A stretch of DNA of 62,516 nt, filler included, from Basidioascus undulatus (lineage: Eukaryota), in assembly GCA_000826855.1 (NCBI GenBank). It is 6 parts of 6 records of this genome, joined end to end, with 100 filler letters (N's around TTAATTAATTAA, not from the genome) between each part and the next. Parts side by side here need not be neighbours in the genome. Positions count along the whole stretch, not along the records: positions 20,897 to 31,240 come from JTLS01001142.1; 5 more parts are not named here. One strand, given 5' to 3'. Under the pieces are notes generated by a model that did no database searches, was not told where the DNA came from, and worked only from the letters and a program-made list of their open reading frames with translations. The position numbers and the translations under genes were made by a program. Positions 5,739 to 52,195 of the stretch are shown here, one piece after another (position 1 is the stretch's first letter; each line of letters starts with the position of its first letter).

Positions 5739-8700
5739 TCACCGCCTGCCCTTCTTGCCCCCGCCCCCACCGCCCTTCCCCTTCCCGCCGCCCGCAGAAG
5801 CCCTTGCCTTCTTCCCCGCCCTCCCGACGCCCGCGCCCTTCACCGCGCGCTCGCCCTCGCCCTTCTTTCGCGCCCCGCCACGCTCCGTCAGGTCCACACT
5901 GAACCCGCCCGACTGGCGCTTCTTCTTCTTCTTCGGCGGCCCGGCGGCGCGGGGGGCGTTGGGGTCGGGGAGGTGGGTGATCTTGGACGGGCCTGTGGAC
6001 CATGAGAGGGGAGATGAACAGGACTGTCAGTTATGCACGGAGGATGGGGGAGGGAGGGGGAGGGAAGAGACGCACGGCTAGCTTTCTTCGCGCTCCGGAT
6101 GGAAGCGCTCACGGCGCGGGCAGACGCGCCCTTGTCCTCCTCGTCCTCCTCGCGAGCAAGCTTGCGGCGCTTATCCTTGCGCGAGAGACCAGAGAAGGGC
6201 GTGATCTTGCGGCCCTGTTGCGCGCCAAGCCACAAATAGGTTCAGCCAACGCTCTCATACGAAATAGACGAGCGAAGCAACGGACCAACGTGTCCGTCTT
6301 CTTCTTCTCCCCCGCGCCCTCGGCGTCCTTGCCCTTCGCGAACGACGCAACGTACTGCTCCTTGCCAGTCTCTGTGCACATGCACGACATCCACACACGC
6401 CCAGTCAGCGCCGTGCATCCTTCAACAGCCCACGAAAGCGAAAGCCGGAGCGACAAAACGCACCCTTGGCCTTGGCCTTGTCCTTCTCCGACTGGAACCA
6501 CGTCCGCGCCGGGCGGCTCTTGATCTCGTCCTCGTACTCCAAGAGGTTCTGGCTCTTGCGGAGCTGCATCTCCGCTTGCCTCAGCTGTATCGCACCCCAA
6601 CCCCACGAGTCAGTCTTCCTCTCCCTCTCCCTCAAAGCTGAAGAGTTCCGGAGAGGGGACGAGACGCACCGCCTTCTCCTCCTTCTCCTCCTTCATGACC
6701 TCCTCGATCTCCTCGTCGAGCCCCTCGAGCTCCTCCGCAACCTCCTCAATCACCTCGGGCGGCACGATGCGGTGCCGGATCGAGTCGGCGTCCTGCGCCG
6801 CGGAGCGCTTAATCACGCTCTTGAGCATCTTGCGGTCCGGCTCGCCGACAAGGGAAACGGAACTGCGGGACGTATTATCATGAGGATGACTCGGCCGGGC
6901 GGAACGGAGAGAAGAACAGGGAAGAAGGAAAGGGGAGAAGGGAAGAGGTGGAGAAGCGACGCACCGACCGTCCCGCCCTGCACGGGCCGTCCGACCAACG
7001 CGGTGGAGGTACTGCTCGATCTGCCCCGGCAGGTCAAAGTTGATGACGGTCTCGACGCCCTTGATGTCCAGACCGCGGGAGGCGAGGTCCGTCGCGAGGA
7101 GGTAGTCGGCCTCGCCGGCGCGGAACGTTTCGAGCGCTTGGATACGCTGCGTGCACCCGCCCACAAACGCATCAGCACTGTTCGACCGACAATGAGGGGG
7201 AGGGAGAAACGGGGAGGGAAGGCACGCACCTGCTCCTGCGTCAAATCACCATGCAGCTCCGCCGCCTTCAACCCGCACAGCCCAAACAGAATGCGCATGC
7301 GGTGCGCGAGTGCCTTGCTCCTGAAGAAGACGATGGTGCGGAGTCGGAACGTGCGGCGGCAGAGGGCGAGGAGGACTGCGCTGCGCTCGCGGAGCTCGGC
7401 CTTGCCGCCCGCCTTGGCCTTGGCCTTGATGCGCACGAACTCCTGCACGAGCCCGCGCGCGGTCGCCTTTTTGGGGTCGACGAAGAGACGCGCGGGCCGG
7501 TTGAGCGAGAGGCGGACCAACTCGTCGACTTTGTCCGTCATTGTGGCGGAGAAGAGCATGGTTTGGCGGTTGACGGCTGCGTGGGCGGGGGAGTCGGTTC
7601 AGCGCGACCAAACGAAGAGCGAAGTTCGGAAGGAATATAGAAAGGGTCGAAGGCGGGAGGAGGAAGAAGAAAAGAAAGGGGACCTACGGCACGACTTGAC
7701 GATCTCGTCGAGCTCGTCCTTGAAGCCCTCCTCGAGCATGCGGTCCGCCTCGTCCATGATGAGCACGTCGAGCGCGTCGAGCGAGAAGCTCGGCGAGTTG
7801 CGCACGTGGTCGATCAGCCGGCCCGGCGTCGCGATCACGATATCCGGCCGCTGCCGGAGCGCGAGCTCCTGCGCTTTGAGGGAGAGACCACCTGCGGGGA
7901 AAGGGGCAGGTCATCAGCAACAGGCGAAGGGAATCTATACAAGACAGAAAGAGAGGGAGGAAAGAGGGAGAGGGAAAAAAATAGGGGAGCGGAGGGCAGG
8001 AAGGAGGAGAGGAAGAGGGTAGGGAAAGGGAGAGGGAGAGGGGAACGCACCCACGCAAAGACACAAACTAACATCCATGAACCTCCCTAAACTTTTCCCA
8101 ACCTCATAGCACTGCTGCGCCAGCTCTCGCGTGGGGGCGAGCACAAGCACGCGCGTCTCGTTCGCGCCCTTGCCGCCCTTCTGGCGGTACATCATGCGCT
8201 CCAACACGGGGAGCATGAACGCGGCGGTCTTGCCCGAGCCGGTGACGGCCTGGCCGACGACGTCCTTGCCTGCGAGCGCAACGGGCAGGACGGCGCGCTG
8301 AATCGGCGTCGGGGTGGCGAAGGAGAGCGCGGAGAGCGCGCGCAGGAGCGGGCGAGAGAGGCCGAGGGAGGTGAAGGTCTTGAGGGATTTGGTGCCCTTG
8401 GAAGAGGTGGACGGGTCGGCAAAGTAGGCCGCTTTGCGGGCGGTCTCGGATTCGGATTCGGCGTCCGAGTCGGAGGAACCGGATTCGGCGTCGGAGGCGG
8501 ACTCCTCCTCGTCGCCTTCCTCCATCTCCTCATCTACGTCCTCGTCCACGTTCTCCTCGTCCTCCACGCCGTCAACCGCCGCGTCCCCATCCTCAGAAGC
8601 CAGCGGGTCCTCTTCCTCGTCTTCCTCCTCATCCTCCGCGCCCATGCCGAACCCATCTGTTCGATCCCCAACGCTTAGCCACTCCACTCCACCCTTACGA

Positions 8701-9582: not shown

Positions 9583-9674
9583 GACCAGATGGCCGAGCGG
9601 TTAAGGCGTGAGACTCGAATGTCCTCGACATCTCATGGGCTATGCCCGCGTAGGTTCAAATCCTGCTCTGGTCG
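9583..9674 (+). tRNA. tRNA-Ser(CGA) with 10-nt intron (9620-9629)
   Basis: Acceptor GACCAGA/TCTGGTC, G73, D-arm GCCGAGCGGTTAAGGC, anticodon stem TGAGA/TCTCA with CT-CGA-A[intron]A, long variable arm GGGC-TAT-GCCC, T-arm GTAGG-TTCAAAT-CCTGC, TTTT just downstream. Confidence 0.95.
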
Positions 9675-10351: not shown

Positions 10352-10451
10352 NNNNNNNNNNNNNNNNNNNNNNNNNNNNNNNNNNNNNNNNNNNNTTAAT
10401 TAATTAANNNNNNNNNNNNNNNNNNNNNNNNNNNNNNNNNNNNNNNNNNNN
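10352..10451. other. Artificial contig spacer
   Basis: 44 N + TTAATTAATTAA (stops in all six frames) + 44 N. Confidence 0.99.
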
Positions 10452-20796: not shown

Positions 20797-20896
20797 NNNN
20801 NNNNNNNNNNNNNNNNNNNNNNNNNNNNNNNNNNNNNNNNTTAATTAATTAANNNNNNNNNNNNNNNNNNNNNNNNNNNNNNNNNNNNNNNNNNNN
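20797..20896. other. Artificial contig spacer
   Basis: N44-TTAATTAATTAA-N44. Confidence 0.99.
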
Positions 20897-23199: not shown

Positions 23200-23950
23200 T
23201 CAGAACCTGGCCGAGTCCTGGAGGCCAACCTCGACCTGCTGCTGGGGTGCACAATCCCCGCCACCAAGCCTAAAATCAGTCCTCTCTTCTTCACGGACAG
23301 TCTGAGGGTTCGCTCACCGTGCCTCTTGGCCTTCTCGCGGTCGATGAAGTCAAGTCCGTGAGTCTGGATGAGGAGGTCAACGATGCCGCCGGTGAGACCC
23401 GCGAGGATCACTTTGGCCTTCTGTTGGTGTGTATAAACCGCTGTTGGTGTGTATAAACCGAGTTCCTGTGTCAGACATAAGGGTGGACTAGGGGAGGGGG
23501 GAGAGCAAGGTGACCTCGTAGGACTCGGGCTTGCCCTCGCGCTGTCCACCCATACAATTCGAATTTCAGAGGAGGCGGAGAGTCAATTGCAGAAAATGCA
23601 AGACTACCTCCTCGTACTGTGAGCAAACAACGTGTAAGTGGCTGTTCCTTCCCATCGCAAGCGGGTCAAGAGCAACGTACGGCCTTGGCAGCCTCGTAGG
23701 CGGCGGCGGAGGCGAGCAGCTCGTGGGACCACGACGCCTACCGACAGACAGGGTCAAGGAGTAAGTTAATACGAGTCGATACCCATCGAGGAGTACCTGG
23801 GTCGTAGCTCTGACCTCGTGCGGCTGGTTCTTGACCTGCTTGTAAGCGTTGCTCTGGTCCTGTTCACCTGCCCACCCCGTCAGAACCAACGTGTCTGATC
23901 AGCGCATCCAATCCACACTATTCTACCGAGTTGTGGCTGAAGAAGCCCAT
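23200..23950 (-). pseudogene. CipC-family (DUF3759) gene, probably damaged
   Basis: Seven small exons: MGFFSHNS/DQSNAYKQVKNQPHE/ASWSHELLASAAAYEAAKA/YEE/REGKPESYE/KAKVILAGLTGGIVDLLIQTHGLDFIDREKAKRH/AQQQVE. The last acceptor is CAC (23247-23249) and another acceptor is duplicated. Confidence 0.8.
23421..23460. repeat. Perfect 20-nt tandem duplication covering a 3' splice site
   Basis: CTGTTGGTGTGTATAAACCG twice in succession. Confidence 0.95.
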
Positions 23951-24780
23951 TGTGTAGAGTGCTTGTTTTTGTGGAAGTCTTTGGAAGTCGTTGTAGGAGG
24001 TGGATGCTGGAGGAGCACAAGCCGTTCGACGCGGCTGCGGCCTTCTTGAACCATTGGTTACGGGGGGTTCAGCCGAAGTCGTCATACCGTTGCGTTCTTC
24101 TCTCTCTCAACGGAACCGTTTCTTATAACAGAGCGGAAGCACGCTGTACAAGCTCGCACTGGCTGTGTACTCGCGGACGCGGTGTGTATTTTAGGCTGCT
24201 GTCTGCCTCGTGGGGTGCCCTTTCGGAAAGGCGCTGTAGGCGGGTCAACGGAAGAGCGTTTCTGTGGAGGAGATAGTGGGCGCCTCTGTTTCAGGACCCC
24301 TGGCAACGCAAGAAGCTGAACCCTGTACATGTGAAACTCGGCGTGTGCGGATTCCGCACTCTTGCGGGCGTGGTACGGCAGCTGCACAAGTGCAGCAGCA
24401 GCACAGCTTTCCAATTGTACAGCAGAGCATCTCCTCATCACTTATGTCTAGCTCTCCTCTTGGAATCATTACACTGACATAGGATCCTGGGCAAACGGCC
24501 TCCTCGGTACCAGATCTTTCGCCTTCCGCACCCGTGGCTCGCTAAAAAATACTATCAGGTGGACGTACTTGCCTACTCATAACAGAGCGTTGGTTACCAC
24601 AGCTTTCGGTTTCAGATCCAAGCAAGAGGCCGTGTGAGAGATGCATCTCTCTTTCCGCAGTGAAGGCAGCAGGCCGTAGTTTCTCACTGAGAATTGCAGG
24701 CGGAGCTGCCGGGGGATCCATCCCACTTGAGATGGGCTTATTCAATGGAACAGACTGAGAAAGCCATTTCCTAGAAGCAA

Positions 24781-24813
24781 GAACGACAACCACGAACGAC
24801 AACCACGAACGAC
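24781..24813. repeat. 13-nt tandem repeat, about 2.5 copies
   Basis: GAACGACAACCAC GAACGACAACCAC GAACGAC. Confidence 0.85.
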
Positions 24814-24857
24814 GGATCACGACCCGGCTCAAAACCCAACGGATATTCCCGGGTGTC

Positions 24858-26990
24858 TCAACCGAAAAGCTCCAGCCAGACCTTGTAGATCATACGCGGG
24901 TGCAGTGCTAACGCTGGAGTAGGCCCAAAAAACAGGCTCCGCACCACGTAAGCGAGAAAAGGATCATATGCGACAGCTGGGTGTCACTCAATGAGATGGT
25001 CGTGGTGGACGACTGGGACACTAGCGACGCACCTTAGTCGCAGCGCTTATGAGCGCCTTGTACCCACGCCTGTTGTAGAACGGAAGAACAAATAGGGGGT
25101 TTAATCAGCTAGGCATGCAGGAAGGAGACGCAGCACAGTGCGCATTGACGCACCGGAAAGCCGCACCATCCTCAAGCGTCGTGCCTTCTTGGGGTTCTGT
25201 ACCTTCCTCGCCGTAGTCGAGCAGACGACGGTGCTTTGTTTGCGAGGAAAGGATTTAAGTAGTCAAATTGAGGGACATCAGTTACACGCACAAGAACGAG
25301 TCACCTCGAATAGTATGAGCGAGAAAAGCCAGCGGGGATGGTATCCTGGACGCTTCACCACACGCTCATTACCCAACCGTTTCCGCAACCTCTTTTCCGA
25401 CCTTCCCCAGCTTGTCGACAACTTCGTCGTCCTCGGCGATTCATTCCAGCGTCTCAATCGTTCGTTCAGACACCGGAACTTTTCCGACCTCCAACGAACT
25501 CTGACTTATTCGCCCACTTGCACTCCCACAGCCAACTTTGGACAGGTAATCCATGTTTGCTCCATCCCACTCAGCGCGGGCCATGCTCTCACGGCATGTT
25601 GCTGACTCGATCGTCTTCCTTCTTCATTCCCACAATCCGCAGTGGTCTCCGCAATTGCTCTTGATGCGCTTCTTATTCTATTCCGGGGCTGATCAGATTG
25701 GGAGGTCCGGAGAATGCTGCAGACACGAGGATTGATCCCGACTTGCCTTAACGTCCGGCTGGTCTTCCAGCAGTCCTTGAACAAGCGCGACAACCTTGGG
25801 ATCGACGGACGTCAAGTCCCGAACGGCGGGCAGGATCCCGCTCGCGATGCAAAGCAACTGTTCGCCTCGGTTGCTGATGTGGAGAGAAACTGCCGACCCA
25901 TGGCCGGTGAGCAAGTGAGCTAGATTGTGACGGTGCAATTGACGTTGACGTACCGCGGTTCCCTTCCTTCTGATAAATTCACAGCGCAGTCAAGTTGGAG
26001 TCCGGGGGTCCCGAAGAAAACAGGCAAGCCTCGCGAAACTGATCGAGCGGCACAGGAAGTGCCCCTTGAACCGCAGCGGAGTCAAGGGAGTAATCCGCCC
26101 GATACTAGTGCAAGCGCATCGTGTACTGCTCCCGACGAGGAGGAGGAAGAACTTGGCGAACAAGGTATTTGACACCTGCCCGAAGGGGGATCCGTTGTCA
26201 GAAATGAGTACAAGAAAGTCGGATGTAGCAGGAACTAACCGGTGCAGGCTGCGCCGGTGCAGTCAACGACGAGAGACGGGGTTGATATCGTTTGCGTAAC
26301 GTTCTCCGTTCGGTACACAACAGCGGAGATGCGTTCCCGCATTCGATCGACTTCGAGCCTGCAGCGTTCCCATAACGAAGCACACGCTCGGGCACTGTCC
26401 TTCGTCAGCCGCCACAAAAGGGTGTCCAAGCTGCTCAGCCAAAGGAAAGTCAGAAGCGAGGCAGATTCTGAAGACGAGTGCAACGAGAAGAGTAGACCAA
26501 CCCAGGTCGGGAGATCTGCAAACGCTCGATAATGACCTTGGGCAAAGGCTGAGGAAGTTGGCGGCCGAGGGCGAAGAAGTTGTCGACGCCGTTCAAGATC
26601 CTGAGCGGTCGGTTCGTCAGCTTTCACCCAGGCACCTGCTGTCCCAGCATATGCAATGCTCAGACGTATGATCTTCCCGCCTTGGCGATCTCCCGGTCGA
26701 AATCGGTGTACATTCTCCTCAGTGCTTCCGGAAGTACACCGGAAAAGACAGATGTTTGCTCGTTAAGTGTGAATAGGGCTGTTGGGCTTATGGGATTGTC
26801 TCGCTTACGGTGACCATAGTCATGACTGAAGTTGGACAGGTTCATGAGCATTTTCCAGTTCAATAGAGTGCAGTATTAGCCAGATGACAACTCACTGGAA
26901 GACCCGAGTCCGGCTTGAACTTCTTCAATTGCACATAGCTTGCGAAGTTGAACATGCATGGGCAAGGACTTTGAGCACCGCAATGGGTAA
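24858..26990 (-). pseudogene. Decayed FAD-dependent oxidoreductase/monooxygenase
   Basis: Ordered fragments RTRVF, LRRMYTDFDREIAKAG, SSLDTLLWRL, SLVVDCTGAA (DG-type motif), DYGEEGTEPQEG, LHPRMIYKVW..stop. Several stops and frameshifts. Family assigned from recalled motif order only. Confidence 0.6.
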
Positions 26991-27006
26991 CAGAACGGTG
27001 GTTGAG

Positions 27007-27079
27007 ATCAGGGGGTTGCAGGTTCGATCCCTGTGTCGGTCAGACCCGGCTGGCTCAATGTTAGAGTATCTGACTACGA
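27007..27079 (+). tRNA. Circularly permuted tRNA-like gene: 3' half (27007-27042) precedes 5' half (27043-27079); anticodon ACG (Arg), Trp-like body; function unknown
   Basis: A-TCAGG-GGGTT-GCAGG-TTCGATC-CCTGT-GTCGGTC-A directly followed by GACCCGGC-TG-GCTC-AATGTTA-GAGT-A-TCTGA-CT-ACG-A. Acceptor and anticodon stems pair across the two halves. Confidence 0.75.
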
Positions 27080-27087
27080 TTTTTTTT
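27080..27087 (+). terminator. T8 tract, candidate Pol III terminator of the permuted tRNA
   Basis: Eight T immediately after position 37 of the 5' half. Confidence 0.5.
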
Positions 27088-28879
27088 GTGTCAGGCAAAT
27101 CTTTTGCTCACCAGCCTGCCAGACGGCAGCCTGAGGCTGGTAGTGGACACTTCCGGGCTGCATGAGCTTTGTGATAACCAACCTCTTTCAACTGTGACAG
27201 TCAGCAAAACGGGATAATACTTGTGAGAATGCAGTCTATTTCCGCTAGCTCAACTCCAGTCAGTGCAATCCCGACGGCGGAGGAAAATCCGCTGTAGCAC
27301 CAAGTAGCACATTGCTGGATGCGCGACGGGGACCGGCAGTCGCTCGCACCACGACGCACTTGCGTCGACCCCACTTTTTCCTTTACTTTTATATTGTCGG
27401 GGGCACTACTCCTAGGTTCTCACCACAAGACTGGCCGACGAAGCAAAGACCGTCGGTCTGACCTATGTGAGTGTGGGCGGGACATGAGCATGAGTGGGCC
27501 GCGGGCCGCATGGCCAGCAGCGACAACATGGCCGGGTTCGGCAGGACGGCTTAATTTACTTTGTACAGAAGGGCGTCCGCTTCAAGGAAATATCAAGGGA
27601 AGCATAATTACCTACAAATCGTGCAGAGCCTGCCAATCTTGACTCTGAGTGAGCCAGGTCAAGGGACGGCCTTCCTCACGCTGCTCCTGGCTGCAATCCT
27701 GTGCAAATAGAATTTTCAAAGGTAACATCGATAGACACACATTAGAGAAGTATGGAGCAAGCCGCAGCTAGGTAAGCATAATGTCGGAAACAGAGGGAAA
27801 AGAGGTTGCGTGACATCTTCTGAAGGCAGCTTCAGGCCGTAGACATCGTAAATATGTCGGTCCAGTTGCGGCTTGCGCATAGCAGTGCAGCAAATTCCTT
27901 CGGTGTGCCTGCTGTGCCTGAGTCCAGGCATCGACGCACACACACCACAACCTCCTTGGCTTTGGTGGTATACGTTTCACATATAGCTGTTTTCGAATCT
28001 TAGATGAAGCGGGGCGAGACACCCATACTTTTGACGGGTGTCGATATACGTAGCATTGGGACGGTGAATTGCCAAGGCTGGTGCCTCAAGACACACTGAG
28101 CAGAGGAAGCAGTGCATGGATCGATATATAAGCACTCCTCAGCGTGTGGCTACATGACGATGATCTACCCAGAGCGACAACTATCCAAGGGGATAAGAGG
28201 GGAATCCATATTGTATTTGATAAGAATGGAGATACTCCGAACTTCAGCAAGAGAGAATGATCTAGTGCCTTTGGTGTAGCGATTCAAGGAATACAAGCTG
28301 CCCATTCTCCCTGTTGTCGAAGTGTCGACTTTTCGGGGTGTTGACTTTTAGGGGTCGAACAGCTCGAGCCGAATCCTTACAAATAGTTTGTCCATTGGCA
28401 GCCGGAATGAGGACGGTCCGTTGGAAAGCATGGGGGGACGTCGGCTTCCGTGGCAAGCCGTTGACTCGGGGTCGAGGCGCTGGTGAAGCCGCCCTCTTCC
28501 ACCACCGCATAGAGATCTTTCTCGTGTGAGAAGCATATCGGAATCTTTGCTTATTTGGAGCGTGCGTTTGCATGTGCTCCATAAAAAATGCGCAAGAAAG
28601 GACGCGCAGATGGGGCAAAGCGAGGCAAGAGGCCACGAGCATGTGAAGCAGCAACCCTTCACTTCGACTTCCCCGCACAAAGCCTCCGGCAAACGGCCTT
28701 CTGCCTGGAACTTCGATCCGTCTCATTGCTCTTCGCCCCTTCGCCTGTCAGACTCAAGCCATCACCTAGACGAATAGACAGCTTTTTCAGACCACTGCTC
28801 TGCCACTCTCCGCGCCTAGCACAGCGGCTCTTGCACCGGGGGATCCGACTGGGATCTGCACGGGCCACGGCGTATCGCG

Positions 28880-31240
28880 ATGAACCGACTACCGTTCAGG
28901 ACTCGGTACGCTTTGCCCCTCCGCTCCGTGCGGGGATCGCTGCACCGCTCACAGCTCATCACCCCCTCGCTCTCTCCCAAATCACAAACACCCCTCTGTC
29001 CCTTGATCTCGCCTCGTCCGCCGGATATCTAGCAAGAAATCTACGCGCGAGACAGGCGAAGCGCCGGCGCCGTCGACACATCCTCCTCCGGGGACGATCC
29101 TCAAGGAAACGACGACGGAGACCGTCCCTGAGCCGCCGCCCACGCTCGACGACGTACTCCCGAGCAATAACGACTTTAGAACGAGCTTGTGAGTGTTGTT
29201 TTCCTTGCGTGGAACGAGGGGGCCGGGGTGTGGGTGGGAGACTGTTGGACCTCTGGGCAGACGGACGCTGACCCTGCTCTGGGTTCCTTGTAGGATCTTC
29301 CCCCAGTTCGTTCATTCCTTCAGTTTAAGCTTCTTGTTCCGAATTCTTACCTCTGCTCTCCCTCCAGCCTGGCTCGCCGCTTCACCCTTCTCCGCTCAGC
29401 CAGCGGCGAGCTCCTGTCCCTGGACACCATGCGTGCGCATCTGCGCCTGCACCAAGACGCCTCGCCGCACGGGAGCGATGCTGCCCTCACCGAGCAGGAG
29501 GAGGAGGACATCATCGAAGCCCTGCGTGAGGCGCGGGCTTTGGAACAGCAAGAGTGTGGCTTCGCTGCGGACGACGAGCAGTCGCCTTCCGCGCACGCGC
29601 GTCCAGCCCGCTTCGGTGTGTCCGGCCGGGATGCGGGCTACATCCGCAGCGTACGCAAAAGCAACGCGAACCGCCCGAGCATCGTGAGCGGCGGCACGAC
29701 GCGAGCGGAGTACGGGCATGGCGAGTTAGAGGAGGTCCTGGTCGAGGGAAGGCGGGAGACGGTTTACGGCGACTCGAGATCTACCACACCTTCCTCTACC
29801 CTATCCCGCTCTTTCACCGCCTCTCAAGACCCCGATCAAGAGCGCCGCCTCTCTCTCGCGCTCTCCCACATCTCATCTCGCATCGCCGCCTCTTCCCCCA
29901 CCCCTTCTTCGCCCGACGCCGACTCGACTGCGACCCCGCGCGCCGGCCACTCTCGGAATGTCTCTACTCTTTCGCGCGACCCGCAGACCAGTCACCTTCG
30001 GAGCGCGTCCGCCGTCTCGGAGGCGGGATCTTTCCGGACTGCGCGAGGCGGGGCCGAGTCGCGCACGGAGTGGCGTCCCGACTCCCGCGCGAGCGTGTCG
30101 TCCGCGGGTCACACGTTCGAGTCGGCCTTGGAGGAGCCGGTGCTGTCGGTAGACGAGGATGAGGAAGATCCTGAGCACCTCGCGTGGCTGCACGAGGACG
30201 TGCCAATCGAGCCTCCCAGCCGCGCGGTGACCGCCTCGCCGACCTCGTCCATCCGCTTACCCGGCTACATACCAGGCCAGATCCGCCCCATCTCCCCCGC
30301 CGTCTCCCGCTCTGACTCGCCCGCGCTGGCGCCGCCGCCGCCGAACGGCAGGGCGCGAGCAGGCAGCAACGCGAGCAGCACCTTCTCCGCGCGGTACCCG
30401 GTCAGGTCCGTCACGCCGAGGGAGCCGGCACCGTTCGCGCCCATCACCGACGACGACGAGACGCCGCCGCCGTCCGCGCTTTGCTACCCTCCTGCACCTC
30501 GCTCGCCGGTGCTCTCCACCCACTCGCACGCCTCATCGGCCTCGTCATACGCTGCGACGACCTTTACGTGCGCACAGCCCGGCGCACCCTACACCCGCTC
30601 CCCGACTTCATACTCCTTCGCCAACCACCTCGCTCCTTCCCCCACTTTGCTCTCCTATACTTCTACCGGCATGCGCCAATCCTCGATCATTTCCCACCAC
30701 TCATCTCAACGCGACCCTGCCTGGCCCGACTCACCCCTCCTCGAAACCTCCGATCCACCGACTCCCACATCGCCTGTCGCCTCCTCCCGCTCACTACGCG
30801 CCTCAACGATCGACCACCCCGCCGAACTCCTCGGTCCTCCCAGCCCAGTTCTCGCGCCGTTCGAGCACGACCCCTCGCCCCTGCTGCCAGCCTTCGAGGA
30901 GCGGCCGCGCCGGCTGTCGGAGGCGGGGTCGTCGTACAAGGACGAGTGGGAGTCGGACGCGTCCCCCTCGGAGTGGGACGAGGGCGACGCGTTCTCGCCT
31001 GAGACGCCCGAGGACGTGCTGGCGCATTACGGGGGACTGGGCAAGGAGGAGGTCCGCGTCGTCATGGACGCGCTGGTGAGAAGGAGGTACGAGGTGGAGC
31101 ACAACCGTTCCGAGCACGAGCACCCGGAGTGGGCGTCGACTTCGGAGCACGAGCATTCAGTTCCGGATGTCGCTTCCTTGAGGGTGAGTGCTGTCGTCCA
31201 TGCGGTGACCATCGTTCCGCCCCTCCCCCCCCCCCCCCCC
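28880..31240 (+). CDS. Hypothetical Ser/Pro-rich protein with an ordered N-terminal block, 3' truncated
   Basis: In-frame splice model MNRLPFRTR/KKSTRE..VLPSNNDFRTSL/IFPH/LARRFTLLRSASGELLSLDTMR..LTEQEEEDIIEAL leading into a 619-aa ORF. The DFRTSL..RRF.LLR block resembles an uncharacterised basidiomycete family as I recall it. Confidence 0.75.
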
Positions 31241-31340
31241 NNNNNNNNNNNNNNNNNNNNNNNNNNNNNNNNNNNNNNNNNNNNTTAATTAATTAANNNN
31301 NNNNNNNNNNNNNNNNNNNNNNNNNNNNNNNNNNNNNNNN
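31241..31340. other. Artificial contig spacer
   Basis: N44-TTAATTAATTAA-N44. Confidence 0.99.
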
Positions 31341-41672: not shown

Positions 41673-41772
41673 NNNNNNNNNNNNNNNNNNNNNNNNNNNN
41701 NNNNNNNNNNNNNNNNTTAATTAATTAANNNNNNNNNNNNNNNNNNNNNNNNNNNNNNNNNNNNNNNNNNNN
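41673..41772. other. Artificial contig spacer
   Basis: N44-TTAATTAATTAA-N44. Confidence 0.99.
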
Positions 41773-52095: not shown

Positions 52096-52195
52096 NNNNN
52101 NNNNNNNNNNNNNNNNNNNNNNNNNNNNNNNNNNNNNNNTTAATTAATTAANNNNNNNNNNNNNNNNNNNNNNNNNNNNNNNNNNNNNNNNNNNN
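52096..52195. other. Artificial contig spacer
   Basis: N44-TTAATTAATTAA-N44. Confidence 0.99.

What the first reader, a model, noticed from the sequence alone, without database searches (positions are those of the whole stretch)
27007..27087. Circularly permuted tRNA gene in a fungal genome
Seen: a complete tRNA 3' half (positions 38-73) is followed with no spacer by its matching 5' half (1-37) and then T8. Swapping the halves gives GACCCGGC TG GCTC AATGTTA GAGT A TCTGA CTACGA|A TCAGG GGGTT GCAGG TTCGATC CCTGT GTCGGTC A. The anticodon stem (TCTGA/TCAGG) and acceptor stem (GACC[C]GGC/GTCGGTC) pair across the halves. U8, A14, A15:U48, G18, A21, C32, U33, R37 and G53-TTCGA-C61 are all in place. 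The break can be placed at the canonical 37/38 splice site, and G27004, three nt before the 3' half, could form the anticodon-intron pair with C32. Known: permuted tRNA genes matured through a circular intermediate occur in Cyanidioschyzon merolae, prasinophytes, a chlorarachniophyte nucleomorph and Thermofilum. I know of none in fungi, and the known ones carry a linker between the halves. Inference: this is either a functional permuted gene needing a single cut between A73 and G1, or a cDNA copy of a CCA-less circularised or mis-ligated tRNA. Against function: G19 is T, the acceptor has an extra C, there is no clear upstream TATA, and the site abuts a pseudogene. The body looks Trp-like (GAC..GUCA), so ACG may be coincidental flank of a Trp-derived copy.
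Basis: partly seen in the sequence, partly recalled or inferred. Interest (0 to 1): 0.9.

Follow-up and report, generated by a model that had tools for sequence, protein, structure and literature searches.

The report
Permuted tRNA-like repeat in a fungus
The back half of a tRNA really does sit directly in front of its front half here, but this is one worn copy of a short repeat found many times in this fungal genome, so it is probably a dead tRNA-derived mobile element rather than a working gene.

Summary
Window 27007-27042 is tRNA positions 38-73, 27043-27079 is positions 1-37, and T8 follows. Swapping the halves gives an ARAGORN tRNA-Arg(ACG). The same swap at every other window position gives nothing.

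It is not a single gene. Read-derived contigs of three runs pile up only on about 26988-27092. Their summed depth is 65-260 times that of the single-copy flanks. Other copies have different flanks on both sides, share a 19-nt leader and end in the T-run. Several cross the 73/1 junction.

This copy is degenerate:
- Only 5 of 7 acceptor pairs form.
- G19 is T.
- The T stem has a G-U where the four other covering contigs per genome run read C.
- There is no TATA and no A box upstream of the B box.

My best reading (0.55) is a tRNA-derived, Pol III-type interspersed repeat built from head-to-tail partial tRNA units. This copy is inert. A functional permuted tRNA (0.08), a tRNA-like small-RNA gene family (0.10) and a DNA-level array relic (0.17) remain open.

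No genome, relatives or RNA data were available. I saw no abutting pseudogene.

The parts
26988..27006 (+). Leader (TAACAGAACGGTGGTTGAG). Other copies share it from 26988, 26994 or 26997 onward. In one X3 copy the part from CGGTGG follows ...TGGCTCAAT directly, so it looks like the 3' part of a D arm from an upstream tRNA-like unit.
   Evidence: pieces start at 26988, 26994 and 26997, and the X3 record 17 loose end shows the upstream unit; the 5' flanks of three other copies are not like the window's upstream DNA (p 0.07-0.51).
27007..27042 (+). tRNA positions 38-73: 3' strand of the anticodon stem (TCAGG), variable loop GGGTT, T arm (GCAGG TTCGATC CCTGT), acceptor 3' strand GTCGGTC and A73.
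   Evidence: At 27034 this copy has T, while the 4 other covering contigs in X1, 6 in X2 and 1 in X3 read C, which makes G49-C65 (table 3).
27021..27031 (+). B-box-like GGTTCGATCCC. It lies upstream of the A-box-like site, which is the wrong order for a type 2 Pol III promoter.
   Evidence: Sequence. The box consensus is recalled. Soma 2014 passages say this order is unsuitable for TFIIIC.
27043..27079 (+). tRNA positions 1-37. G27043 is either G1 or a 1-nt linker. Then come the acceptor 5' strand ACCCGGC, TG, the D arm GCTC AATGTTA GAGT, A26, the 5' strand of the anticodon stem TCTGA, and the loop CTACGA with the anticodon ACG at 27076-27078.
   Evidence: pair list.
27051..27061 (+). A-box-like TGGCTCAATGT, with T where G19 should be.
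   Evidence: Sequence. The consensus is recalled.
27080..27087 (+). T8, a Pol III-type terminator and the 3' end of the repeat. Other copies leave the alignment at 27084-27092 into unrelated flanks.
   Evidence: the only T run of 8 or more in the window. table 7: loose ends behind 27084, 27085, 27086, 27088, 27089 and 27092.
27088..27097 (+). GTGTCAGGCA. Together with T27087 it is an imperfect direct repeat (9 of 11) of TGTGTCGGTCA at 27032-27042, and TTTT follows 4 nt later. At least one other copy shares GTGTC after its T-run. It may be a vestige of a tRNA 3' end with its trailer and terminator.
   Evidence: repeat D1; a loose end starts only behind 27092.

Best explanation
Window 26988-27092 is one diverged copy of a short (about 100 nt) interspersed repeat of this basidiomycete-like genome.

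The repeat is built from head-to-tail pieces of a tRNA, in this order:
- a vestigial D-arm piece, which is the leader;
- positions 38-73 of one unit;
- 0-1 linker base;
- positions 1-37 of the next unit;
- an oligo-T Pol III terminator that cuts the second unit off just after the anticodon.

Read across the unit boundary, this is a circularly permuted tRNA(ACG).

I think the family spread as a Pol III-type, SINE-like element. The repeated unit matches a plausible transcription unit, running from the leader to the U-run. More copies hold the 3' part than the 5' part. Longer copies seem to keep an upstream D arm that would put an A box in front of the T-arm B box.

This copy lacks that upstream A box, has a damaged acceptor stem and D loop, and has no TATA. 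It is most likely neither transcribed nor able to give a working tRNA.

Shown: the anatomy, the cloverleaf after the swap, its uniqueness in the window, the multicopy status, the shared borders, and the defects of this copy.

Inferred: Pol III transcription, spread through RNA, and origin by tandem duplication with loss of the outer parts.
For: Multicopy. Contigs of runs X1 and X2 cover the flanks at depth 16-19 and 32-36. The three bins 26981-27091 have summed depths of 1211/2201/2916 (X1) and 2492/6030/9320 (X2). The tool warns that summed depth is not a copy number, so this is a rough index only.
- 45 (X1), 43 (X2) and 4 (X3) records were laid, and 14, 14 and 3 of them lie only partly on the stretch.
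- Short records of 42-56 nt have depths of 175, 298, 472 and 650.

Borders. Loose ends behind 27084-27092 carry at least seven different 3' flanks. Loose ends before 26988, 26994 and 27012 carry different 5' flanks, which do not resemble the window's upstream DNA (p 0.07, 0.51, 0.42).

Junction in other copies.
- Records at 27012-27068, 27013-27068 and 27013-27065 (5-9 differences) and X3 record 26997-27064 (6 differences) run across 27042/27043.
- The 25 letters ahead of the X3 record are themselves a second 73/1 junction (score 38, exceeded by 0 of 2000 shuffles).

Depth rises from 5' to 3' across the three bins in both genome runs, as 5'-truncated retro-copies would give.

This copy is worn.
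- T at 27034 where the 4 (X1), 6 (X2) and 1 (X3) other contigs covering that base read C.
- 5 of 7 acceptor pairs.
- G19 is T.
- No TATA-like hexamer in the 100 nt upstream; the most AT-rich 8-mer there has 6 of 8.

Context. The element sits in a 5.7-kb stretch with no Pfam domain. tRNA-derived interspersed elements are known in Basidiomycota (Kojima 2024, PMC10886601, abstract and two sections read).
Against: - No whole genome was held. I never saw full copies, a consensus, target-site duplications or a partner retrotransposon.
The other records have 22-26 letters on the right side.
- The tail is oligo-T, not the A-rich tail usual for SINEs. I found no direct repeat of 6 nt or more flanking this copy.
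- In this copy the B box precedes the A box. The upstream A box rests on one 93-nt X3 record.
- The depth gradient could have other causes. The first bin is only partly covered by the element, and contigs give one depth figure each.
- Identical 42-56-nt cores at high depth could also reflect selection on a gene family.
- No contig showed the normal 5'-half-then-3'-half order (tables 5 and 5c: no joints). So no canonical parent gene was seen, though such short joints may be missed.
Confidence: 0.55

Rival explanations
1. Working permuted tRNA gene(s). Pol III transcribes leader, 3' half, 5' half and U-run. The tRNA splicing endonuclease cuts after A37 and before A38. The tRNA ligase closes a circle. 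A single RNase P cut between A73 (or the linker base) and G1 then frees both ends, and CCA is added. This would give a tRNA that reads CGN codons.
For: - The break is exactly at 37/38, and the rejoined loop reads CTACGAA.
- The terminator sits right after position 37.
- G27004 could pair with C32, and 3 of the 4 pairs of a central helix can form by hand pairing (C32-G27004, A34-U27002, C35-G27001).
- Copies share the leader, and many copies hold identical cores.
- No normal-order parent was seen.
- The tandem-duplication route to such genes is the published model, and a 1-nt intervening sequence is known in Thermofilum (Soma 2014 passages).
- A closed 7-pair acceptor hairpin can be cut by RNase P and receive CCA in M. 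smegmatis YrlA (PMC4201824 passages).
Against: - The copy index of 65-260 is far above what I recall for a fungal isoacceptor family (recalled, not tested).
- This copy has 2 acceptor mismatches, T19 and no TATA.
- The A and B boxes are in the wrong order for TFIIIC (passage).
- The tRNA-like fold is -17.5 kcal/mol (-21.1 when extended) against an MFE of -27.6, and the z-score is -0.22.
- Permuted tRNA genes are reported only from algae and archaea in the passages read, and 3 of 4 central pairs is close to chance.
- No RNA data were available.
Confidence: 0.08
2. A family of small Pol III RNA genes with a tRNA-like module (T arm, closed acceptor hairpin, D arm) on a stem made by the 5' and 3' ends. 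This is built like bacterial YrlA / Y RNAs. It would not decode, and would act through proteins that bind tRNA or La/Ro.
For: - On the native order the only Rfam match at E up to 10 is YrlA (RF02553): 26989-27093, 25.5 bits, E 0.0018, full model length.
- A terminal stem between leader and tail is predicted.
- The U-run end and the conserved leader fit.
Against: - 25.5 bits is far below the gathering score of 69.
- The match rests on generic T- and D-arm letters that any permuted tRNA would give.
- The fold is no better than shuffles (z -0.22).
- I had no evidence for a Ro60 partner, and no covariation data.
- The copy index is high and this copy is degraded.
Confidence: 0.1
3. A DNA-level relic: the remains of head-to-tail tRNA gene arrays, copied around by segmental duplication or recombination and then eroded, with no RNA intermediate.
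For: - The X3 record shows a unit boundary, a 64-nt unit and a second boundary in a row.
- After T8 comes GTGTCAGGCA, then AATC, then TTTT. This looks like a second, eroded tRNA 3' end with its trailer and terminator.
- No target-site duplication was found.
Against: - Tandem Repeats Finder finds no array at this locus.
- Flanks differ on both sides within a few bases of the unit's ends in several copies. That fits insertion of a defined unit better than segmental copying.
- The 5'-to-3' depth gradient also argues against it.
Confidence: 0.17
4. A one-off cDNA copy of a circularised or mis-ligated tRNA, or an assembly chimera.
For: The halves abut with 0-1 base between A73 and G1, and there is no CCA.
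Against: - It is multicopy, with a shared leader and a shared T-run end.
- Its own junction lies inside a contig built from reads, with 0 differences, in two runs. Both runs may be the assembly's source.
Confidence: 0.04

Closest known systems
Circularly permuted tRNA genes, type II (junction 37/38), of Cyanidioschyzon merolae, prasinophytes, the Bigelowiella nucleomorph and Thermofilum pendens (Soma 2014 review, PMC3978253, passages read)
   Same: The 3' half lies upstream of the 5' half on one strand. The break is at 37/38, a T-stretch follows the 5' half, and a cloverleaf forms after the swap.
   Different: - The known genes are 34 genes in seven species, and the C. merolae ones are shown to be expressed and aminoacylated.
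- Most have a TATA-like sequence upstream, a BHB or BHB-like motif, and 1-74 nt between the halves.
- Here there are 0-1 nt between the halves, no TATA and a damaged acceptor stem.
- The copy index is in the tens to hundreds, the host is a fungus, and there are no expression data.
tRNA-derived SINEs (SINE2) and the tRNA-bearing TRIM 'Helenus' of Pucciniales and some Agaricomycetes (Kojima 2024, PMC10886601)
   Same: A short, dispersed, tRNA-like repeat in a basidiomycete-type genome. It is unlikely to encode a working tRNA and inflates tRNA-like counts.
   Different: - Those elements carry the tRNA-like part in normal order, with the A box before the B box.
- Helenus has LTRs, a PBS, a PPT and 5-bp target-site duplications.
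- SINEs usually end in A-rich or simple-repeat tails.
- Here the order is permuted, the tail is oligo-T, the unit does not begin with TG or end with CA, and I saw no target-site duplication.
Bacterial YrlA / Y RNA tRNA mimics (Rfam RF02553; Chen et al. 2014, PMC4201824)
   Same: The same connectivity: closing stem, variable region, T arm, closed acceptor hairpin, D arm, closing stem. It is the only Rfam model that matches the native order.
   Different: It scores 25.5 bits against a threshold of 69. YrlA is bacterial, is linked to a Ro60 gene and has a Ro-binding helix. None of these could be shown here.

Membership tests
Circularly permuted tRNA gene (type II) | 3' half upstream of the 5' half on the same strand, giving a cloverleaf when swapped | tested here: met
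   Control: hits only at starts 27004-27010.
Circularly permuted tRNA gene (type II) | Intervening sequence between position 73 and position 1 (1-74 nt in known genes) | tested here: inconclusive
   0 nt if G27043 is G1. 1 nt in ARAGORN's reading and in the X3 copy.
Circularly permuted tRNA gene (type II) | BHB or BHB-like motif formed by leader and trailer at the 37/38 junction | tested here: inconclusive
   Hand pairing on the sequence gives 3 of 4 central pairs, two 3-nt bulges, and an outer helix made only of G-U and A-U pairs with the U-run. This is near chance, and I had no covariation data.
Circularly permuted tRNA gene (type II) | TATA-like sequence within about 50 bp upstream | tested here: not met
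   no TATA-like hexamer in the 100 nt upstream.
Circularly permuted tRNA gene (type II) | T-stretch downstream of the 5' half | tested here: met
   T8 at 27080-27087.
Circularly permuted tRNA gene (type II) | Intact acceptor stem and core tertiary positions | tested here: not met
   5 of 7 acceptor pairs and T at position 19 in this copy.
Circularly permuted tRNA gene (type II) | Expression, circular intermediate, CCA addition and aminoacylation | not testable with these tools
   No RNA holder was listed.
tRNA-derived SINE | Many dispersed copies with unrelated flanks | tested here: met
   (depth, 14 partly laid records in each genome run, differing loose ends). (flanks unlike).
tRNA-derived SINE | Internal Pol III promoter with the A box upstream of the B box | tested here: inconclusive
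   Not present in this copy: the B box is at 27021-27031 and the A box at 27051-27061. One X3 record has TGGCTCAATCGG upstream of the T arm.
tRNA-derived SINE | A-rich or simple-repeat tail and target-site duplications | tested here: not met
   The tail is oligo-T. No flanking direct repeat of 6 nt or more was found.
tRNA-derived SINE | 5'-truncated copies and a partner LINE | tested here: inconclusive
   Depth rises 5' to 3'. A partner could not be sought without the genome.
Helenus / TRIMp3 solo LTR | LTR with the tRNA-like part in normal order, 5-bp target-site duplication, PBS and PPT in full copies. TG...CA ends are a recalled LTR feature, not from the paper. | tested here: not met
   The unit starts with TAACAG and ends in a T-run. 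No target-site duplication. The order is permuted.
YrlA / Y RNA (RF02553) | Covariance-model score at or above the gathering score of 69 bits | tested here: not met
   25.5 bits, E 0.0018.
YrlA / Y RNA (RF02553) | Ro60 partner gene and Ro-binding helix | not testable with these tools
   No genome was held.

The most novel reading that the evidence does not exclude
Some members of this family are live genes. An A box kept from a vestigial upstream D arm, together with the T-arm B box, would let TFIIIC-dependent Pol III transcribe leader, 3' half, 5' half and U-run. The fungal splicing endonuclease and ligase would circularise the transcript at 37/38. One RNase P cut at the 73/1 junction would release a tRNA. 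That would be the first permuted tRNA genes in opisthokonts. They would be caught at the tandem-duplication stage proposed for their origin, and would be spreading like a SINE.
Probability: 0.08. Interest if true: 0.9.

Novelty: new variant of a known kind. Interest (0 to 1): 0.45.

Why it matters
tRNA-derived repeats are common. I found no report of one whose unit is a circularly permuted tRNA ending in its own Pol III terminator. The paper searches listed none, and searches place permuted tRNA genes only in algae and archaea.

Such a family would be a natural pool of the intermediates that the 'tandem duplication and loss of outer parts' and 'reverse transcription of permuted RNA' models need. 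It would also be a place to test whether fungal splicing and RNase P enzymes can mature permuted precursors.

In practice, standard tRNA finders miss these elements entirely. They may therefore go unmasked in fungal annotations.

Tried and rejected
- No whole genome was held, so I could not do a census, find a parent tRNA or search for Ro60.
- Sequencing runs: only three DNA-type holders, two of which may be the assembly's own source. No RNA holder was listed.
- Earlier findings of this scan: nothing by place or by sequence.
- Metagenome scan with a junction pattern: 1 hit (L001). It is a chance match inside GC-rich, bacterial-looking DNA, with no T arm and no tRNA.
- The same pattern in prokaryote genomes gave 0 hits. 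A 32-nt stretch of the 5' half plus T-run gave 0 hits in viral contigs.
- Protein-level trick, using the ORF that runs through the element:
  - The word-index search found no candidate.
  - The full HMMER search found 4 repetitive proteins at E up to 0.001. Their scores are inflated by internal repeats, and single-unit BLASTP scores are only 24-28 bits, so I do not claim homology.
  - P0242 could not be traced: cluster look-up was off and there was no locus in prokaryote genomes.
- The first helicase search was uninformative because of its length limits.
- Tandem Repeats Finder found no array at the locus.
- The bacterial promoter/terminator scan does not apply to a eukaryote.
- A paper search for two sequence strings found nothing relevant.
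- A solo LTR of a Helenus-type TRIM, and read-through of an LTR-element tRNA primer, were considered and rejected. The flanks beyond the T-run differ between copies, and the unit does not start with TG or end with CA.
- No supplementary files of any paper were opened.

Full report
**1. What is in the sequence**

- 27007-27042 is ATCAGG GGGTT GCAGG TTCGATC CCTGT GTCGGTC A, which is tRNA positions 38-73.
- 27043-27079 follows with no spacer. It is GACCCGGC TG GCTC AATGTTA GAGT A TCTGA CTACGA, which is positions 1-37.
- 27080-27087 is T8.

ARAGORN and Rfam at gathering thresholds see nothing here in the native order. They find only a tRNA-Ser(CGA) with an intron at 9583-9674.

When a script swaps the two stretches, ARAGORN calls a 72-nt tRNA-Arg(ACG). 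The rejoined anticodon loop reads CTACGAA.

Two controls show this is more than chance:
- The same 36|37 swap at every N-free position of the window gives 7 hits, all at starts 27004-27010.
- T8 at 27080 is the only T run of 8 or more in the window.

A looser scan for any circular permutation does give a few weak false positives elsewhere. The exact geometry matters.

I could not run Infernal's tRNA model on the swapped order. On the native order it gives no match at E up to 10. The only match is YrlA, a bacterial RNA with exactly this permuted tRNA-like connectivity, at 25.5 bits against a threshold of 69.

**2. It is a repeat, not a lone gene**

No whole genome was held. Three public runs hold the region, and I laid their read-derived contigs on 26500-27600 at 80% likeness.

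Depth:
- The flanks are covered once, at depth 16-19 in X1 and 32-36 in X2.
- The three bins spanning 26981-27091 have summed depths of 1211, 2201 and 2916 in X1, and 2492, 6030 and 9320 in X2.
- The tool warns that summed depth is not a copy number. I use it only as a rough index of 65-260 flank equivalents.
- X3 is a smaller run from the same sample as X2. It holds nothing of the flanks but does hold the element.

Shape of the records:
- 45 (X1), 43 (X2) and 4 (X3) records were laid. Only 20 pieces are printed, and 72 more were not shown.
- The window's own contigs break inside the element (26500-27030 and 27004-27600), as repeats do in such assemblies.
- Short records of 42-56 nt at depths of 175-650 cover 27013-27068 with 4-5 differences.

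Borders:
- Loose ends leave the element behind 27084, 27085, 27086, 27088, 27089 and 27092 into different sequences.
- Loose ends enter it before 26988, 26994, 26997 and 27012.
- The 5' flanks of three copies do not resemble the window's upstream DNA (p 0.07, 0.51, 0.42).
- So the unit is about 26988-27092: a 19-nt leader, the 3' half, the 5' half, the T-run and perhaps GTGTC.

**3. Is the permuted junction shared?**

- The window's own junction lies inside a contig with 0 differences in X1 and in X2, so it is not an assembly chimera. Both runs may be the assembly's source.
- Other records run across 27042/27043 (27012-27068, 27013-27068, 27013-27065, and 26997-27064 in X3). They have only 22-26 letters on the right side, below the 31 that the tool asks for. 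I call this probable, not proven.
- Independent support comes from the 25 letters ahead of the X3 record. They read GTCGGTCA-C-GGCCGGC-TGGCTCAAT, which is a second 73/1 junction (0 of 2000 shuffles score as high). There is one base between A73 and a fully pairing acceptor 5' strand.
- In that record TGGCTCAAT runs straight into CGGTGGTTGAG-A-TCAGG. So the window's 'leader' looks like the 3' part of a D arm from an upstream unit that lacks positions 27-38.
- The family therefore looks like head-to-tail partial tRNA units. The permuted tRNA is what one reads across a unit boundary.
- No contig showed the normal order of the halves (no joints). Such short joints may be missed.

**4. State of this copy**

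- At 27034 it has T, where the 4 (X1), 6 (X2) and 1 (X3) other contigs that cover that base read C. The C makes G49-C65.
- Its acceptor stem has 5 of 7 pairs.
- G19 is T.
- There is no TATA-like hexamer in the 100 nt upstream.
- The B-box-like site (27021-27031) precedes the A-box-like site (27051-27061). The Soma review calls this order unsuitable for TFIIIC.
- The tRNA-like fold is -17.5 kcal/mol (-21.1 with an extended closing stem) against an MFE of -27.6. The region folds no better than shuffles (z -0.22).
- Hand pairing of leader and tail gives a BHB-like shape with 3 of 4 central pairs, including C32-G27004. That is close to chance.
- After T8 comes GTGTCAGGCA, then AATC, then TTTT. With T27087 it is an imperfect repeat of the end of the 3' half. 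It may be a vestige of a further tRNA 3' end.

**5. Surroundings and host**

- The element lies in a 5.7-kb stretch (23.6-29.3 kb) of lower GC.
- None of the 88 ORFs of 45 aa or more in that stretch reaches its Pfam cut-off (for the longer ORFs). I saw no pseudogene or transposon gene next to it.
- Genes further out are ordinary eukaryotic ones: Sec23/24, DUF3759, an oxysterol-binding protein and helicases.
- A DDX27/DRS1-type helicase ORF has only Basidiomycota among its best named relatives, at 50-56% identity. The host is a fungus with no close relative in that list.

**6. Reading**

My best explanation (0.55) is a tRNA-derived, Pol III-type interspersed repeat with a permuted or tandem build, and this copy is dead. 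The rivals are:
- a DNA-level relic of tRNA arrays (0.17);
- a small-RNA gene family with a tRNA-like module (0.10);
- a truly functional permuted tRNA (0.08);
- a one-off cDNA or an assembly chimera (0.04).

For: multicopy status, a defined unit with unrelated flanks, a depth gradient rising towards the 3' end, and wear in this copy.

Against: the oligo-T rather than A-rich tail, no target-site duplication, no full copies seen, and an upstream A box that rests on one record.

**7. Comparison with what is known**

- Permuted tRNA genes are reported from six algae and one archaeon. They have 1-74 nt between the halves, TATA-like promoters, BHB motifs and, in C. merolae, proven expression (PMC3978253, passages). 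A 2026 review still places them in algae and archaea (PMC13578239, passages).
- A search for 'permuted tRNA' plus 'fungi' listed 12 of 16 papers. None was about fungal permuted genes by title. Searches for permuted tRNA-like SINEs or pseudogenes found none either.
- Basidiomycetes do carry tRNA-like mobile elements. These are the Helenus TRIMs (PMC10886601; abstract, part 1 of section 3 and all of section 4). They have LTRs and target-site duplications, and their tRNA-like part has A and B boxes as in a tRNA, which this unit lacks.
- The Trp-like look of the body is a recalled resemblance. I did not test it.

**8. What stays open**

Everything that needs the genome, related genomes or RNA stays open. 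The decisive steps are a census of the copies, a search for canonical parent genes, a comparison of orthologous sites, and tRNA or small-RNA sequencing for the 37/38 joint with CCA.

Noticed in passing
window 9583-9674 (+): An ordinary tRNA-Ser(CGA) gene with an intron after position 37 and a T4 terminator a few bases downstream (Rfam tRNA 49.5 bits; ARAGORN could not name it). It shows that this genome has canonical intron-bearing tRNA genes. Its upstream 100 nt holds TTTTTATA at -77.
   Followed up: partly
window 10352-10451, 20797-20896, 31241-31340, 41673-41772, 52096-52195: Five pairs of 44-base N blocks, with 12 bases between the two blocks of each pair, recur about every 10.4 kb. The regular spacing looks like masking or scaffolding rather than biology.
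   Followed up: no
window 23600-29300: A 5.7-kb stretch with lower GC (about 48-58% against 59% for the whole window). No ORF in it reaches a Pfam cut-off. It lies between a DUF3759-type gene and a long Ser/Pro-rich ORF (29294-31240).
   Followed up: partly
window 27032-27042 and 27087-27097: An imperfect direct repeat, TGTGTCGGTCA / TGTGTCAGGCA, brackets the 5' half plus the T-run. The second copy is followed by AATC and then TTTT, like a tRNA 3' end with its trailer and terminator. Two other copies also show GT(G/A)TC, then a few bases, then TTT(T)G after their T-run (loose ends).
   Followed up: partly
protein P0242, from the public protein library; source unknown: A 595-aa ORF made of roughly 50-66-aa repeats. 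Each repeat resembles the translation of the element, and the likeness continues past the T-run (AGSILEYLS..WFV..K.FS against AGSMLEYLTTIFFVSGKSFA). Each unit scores only 24-28 bits, so it may be chance or a tandem array of a related repeat in another assembly. I could not trace it.
   Followed up: partly
L001 2001-2025 (-): The single metagenome match to the junction pattern sits in GC-rich, bacterial-looking DNA with no tRNA features. Its three free positions read the same (CGG) as the X3 loose end. I take this as coincidence.
   Followed up: yes
window 8395-8470 (+): The general circular-permutation scan with ARAGORN calls a 'tRNA-Ala(TGC)' here. The drawn structure is poor and lies in GC-rich, probably coding DNA. 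It is a false positive, and it shows the error rate of that looser scan.
   Followed up: yes
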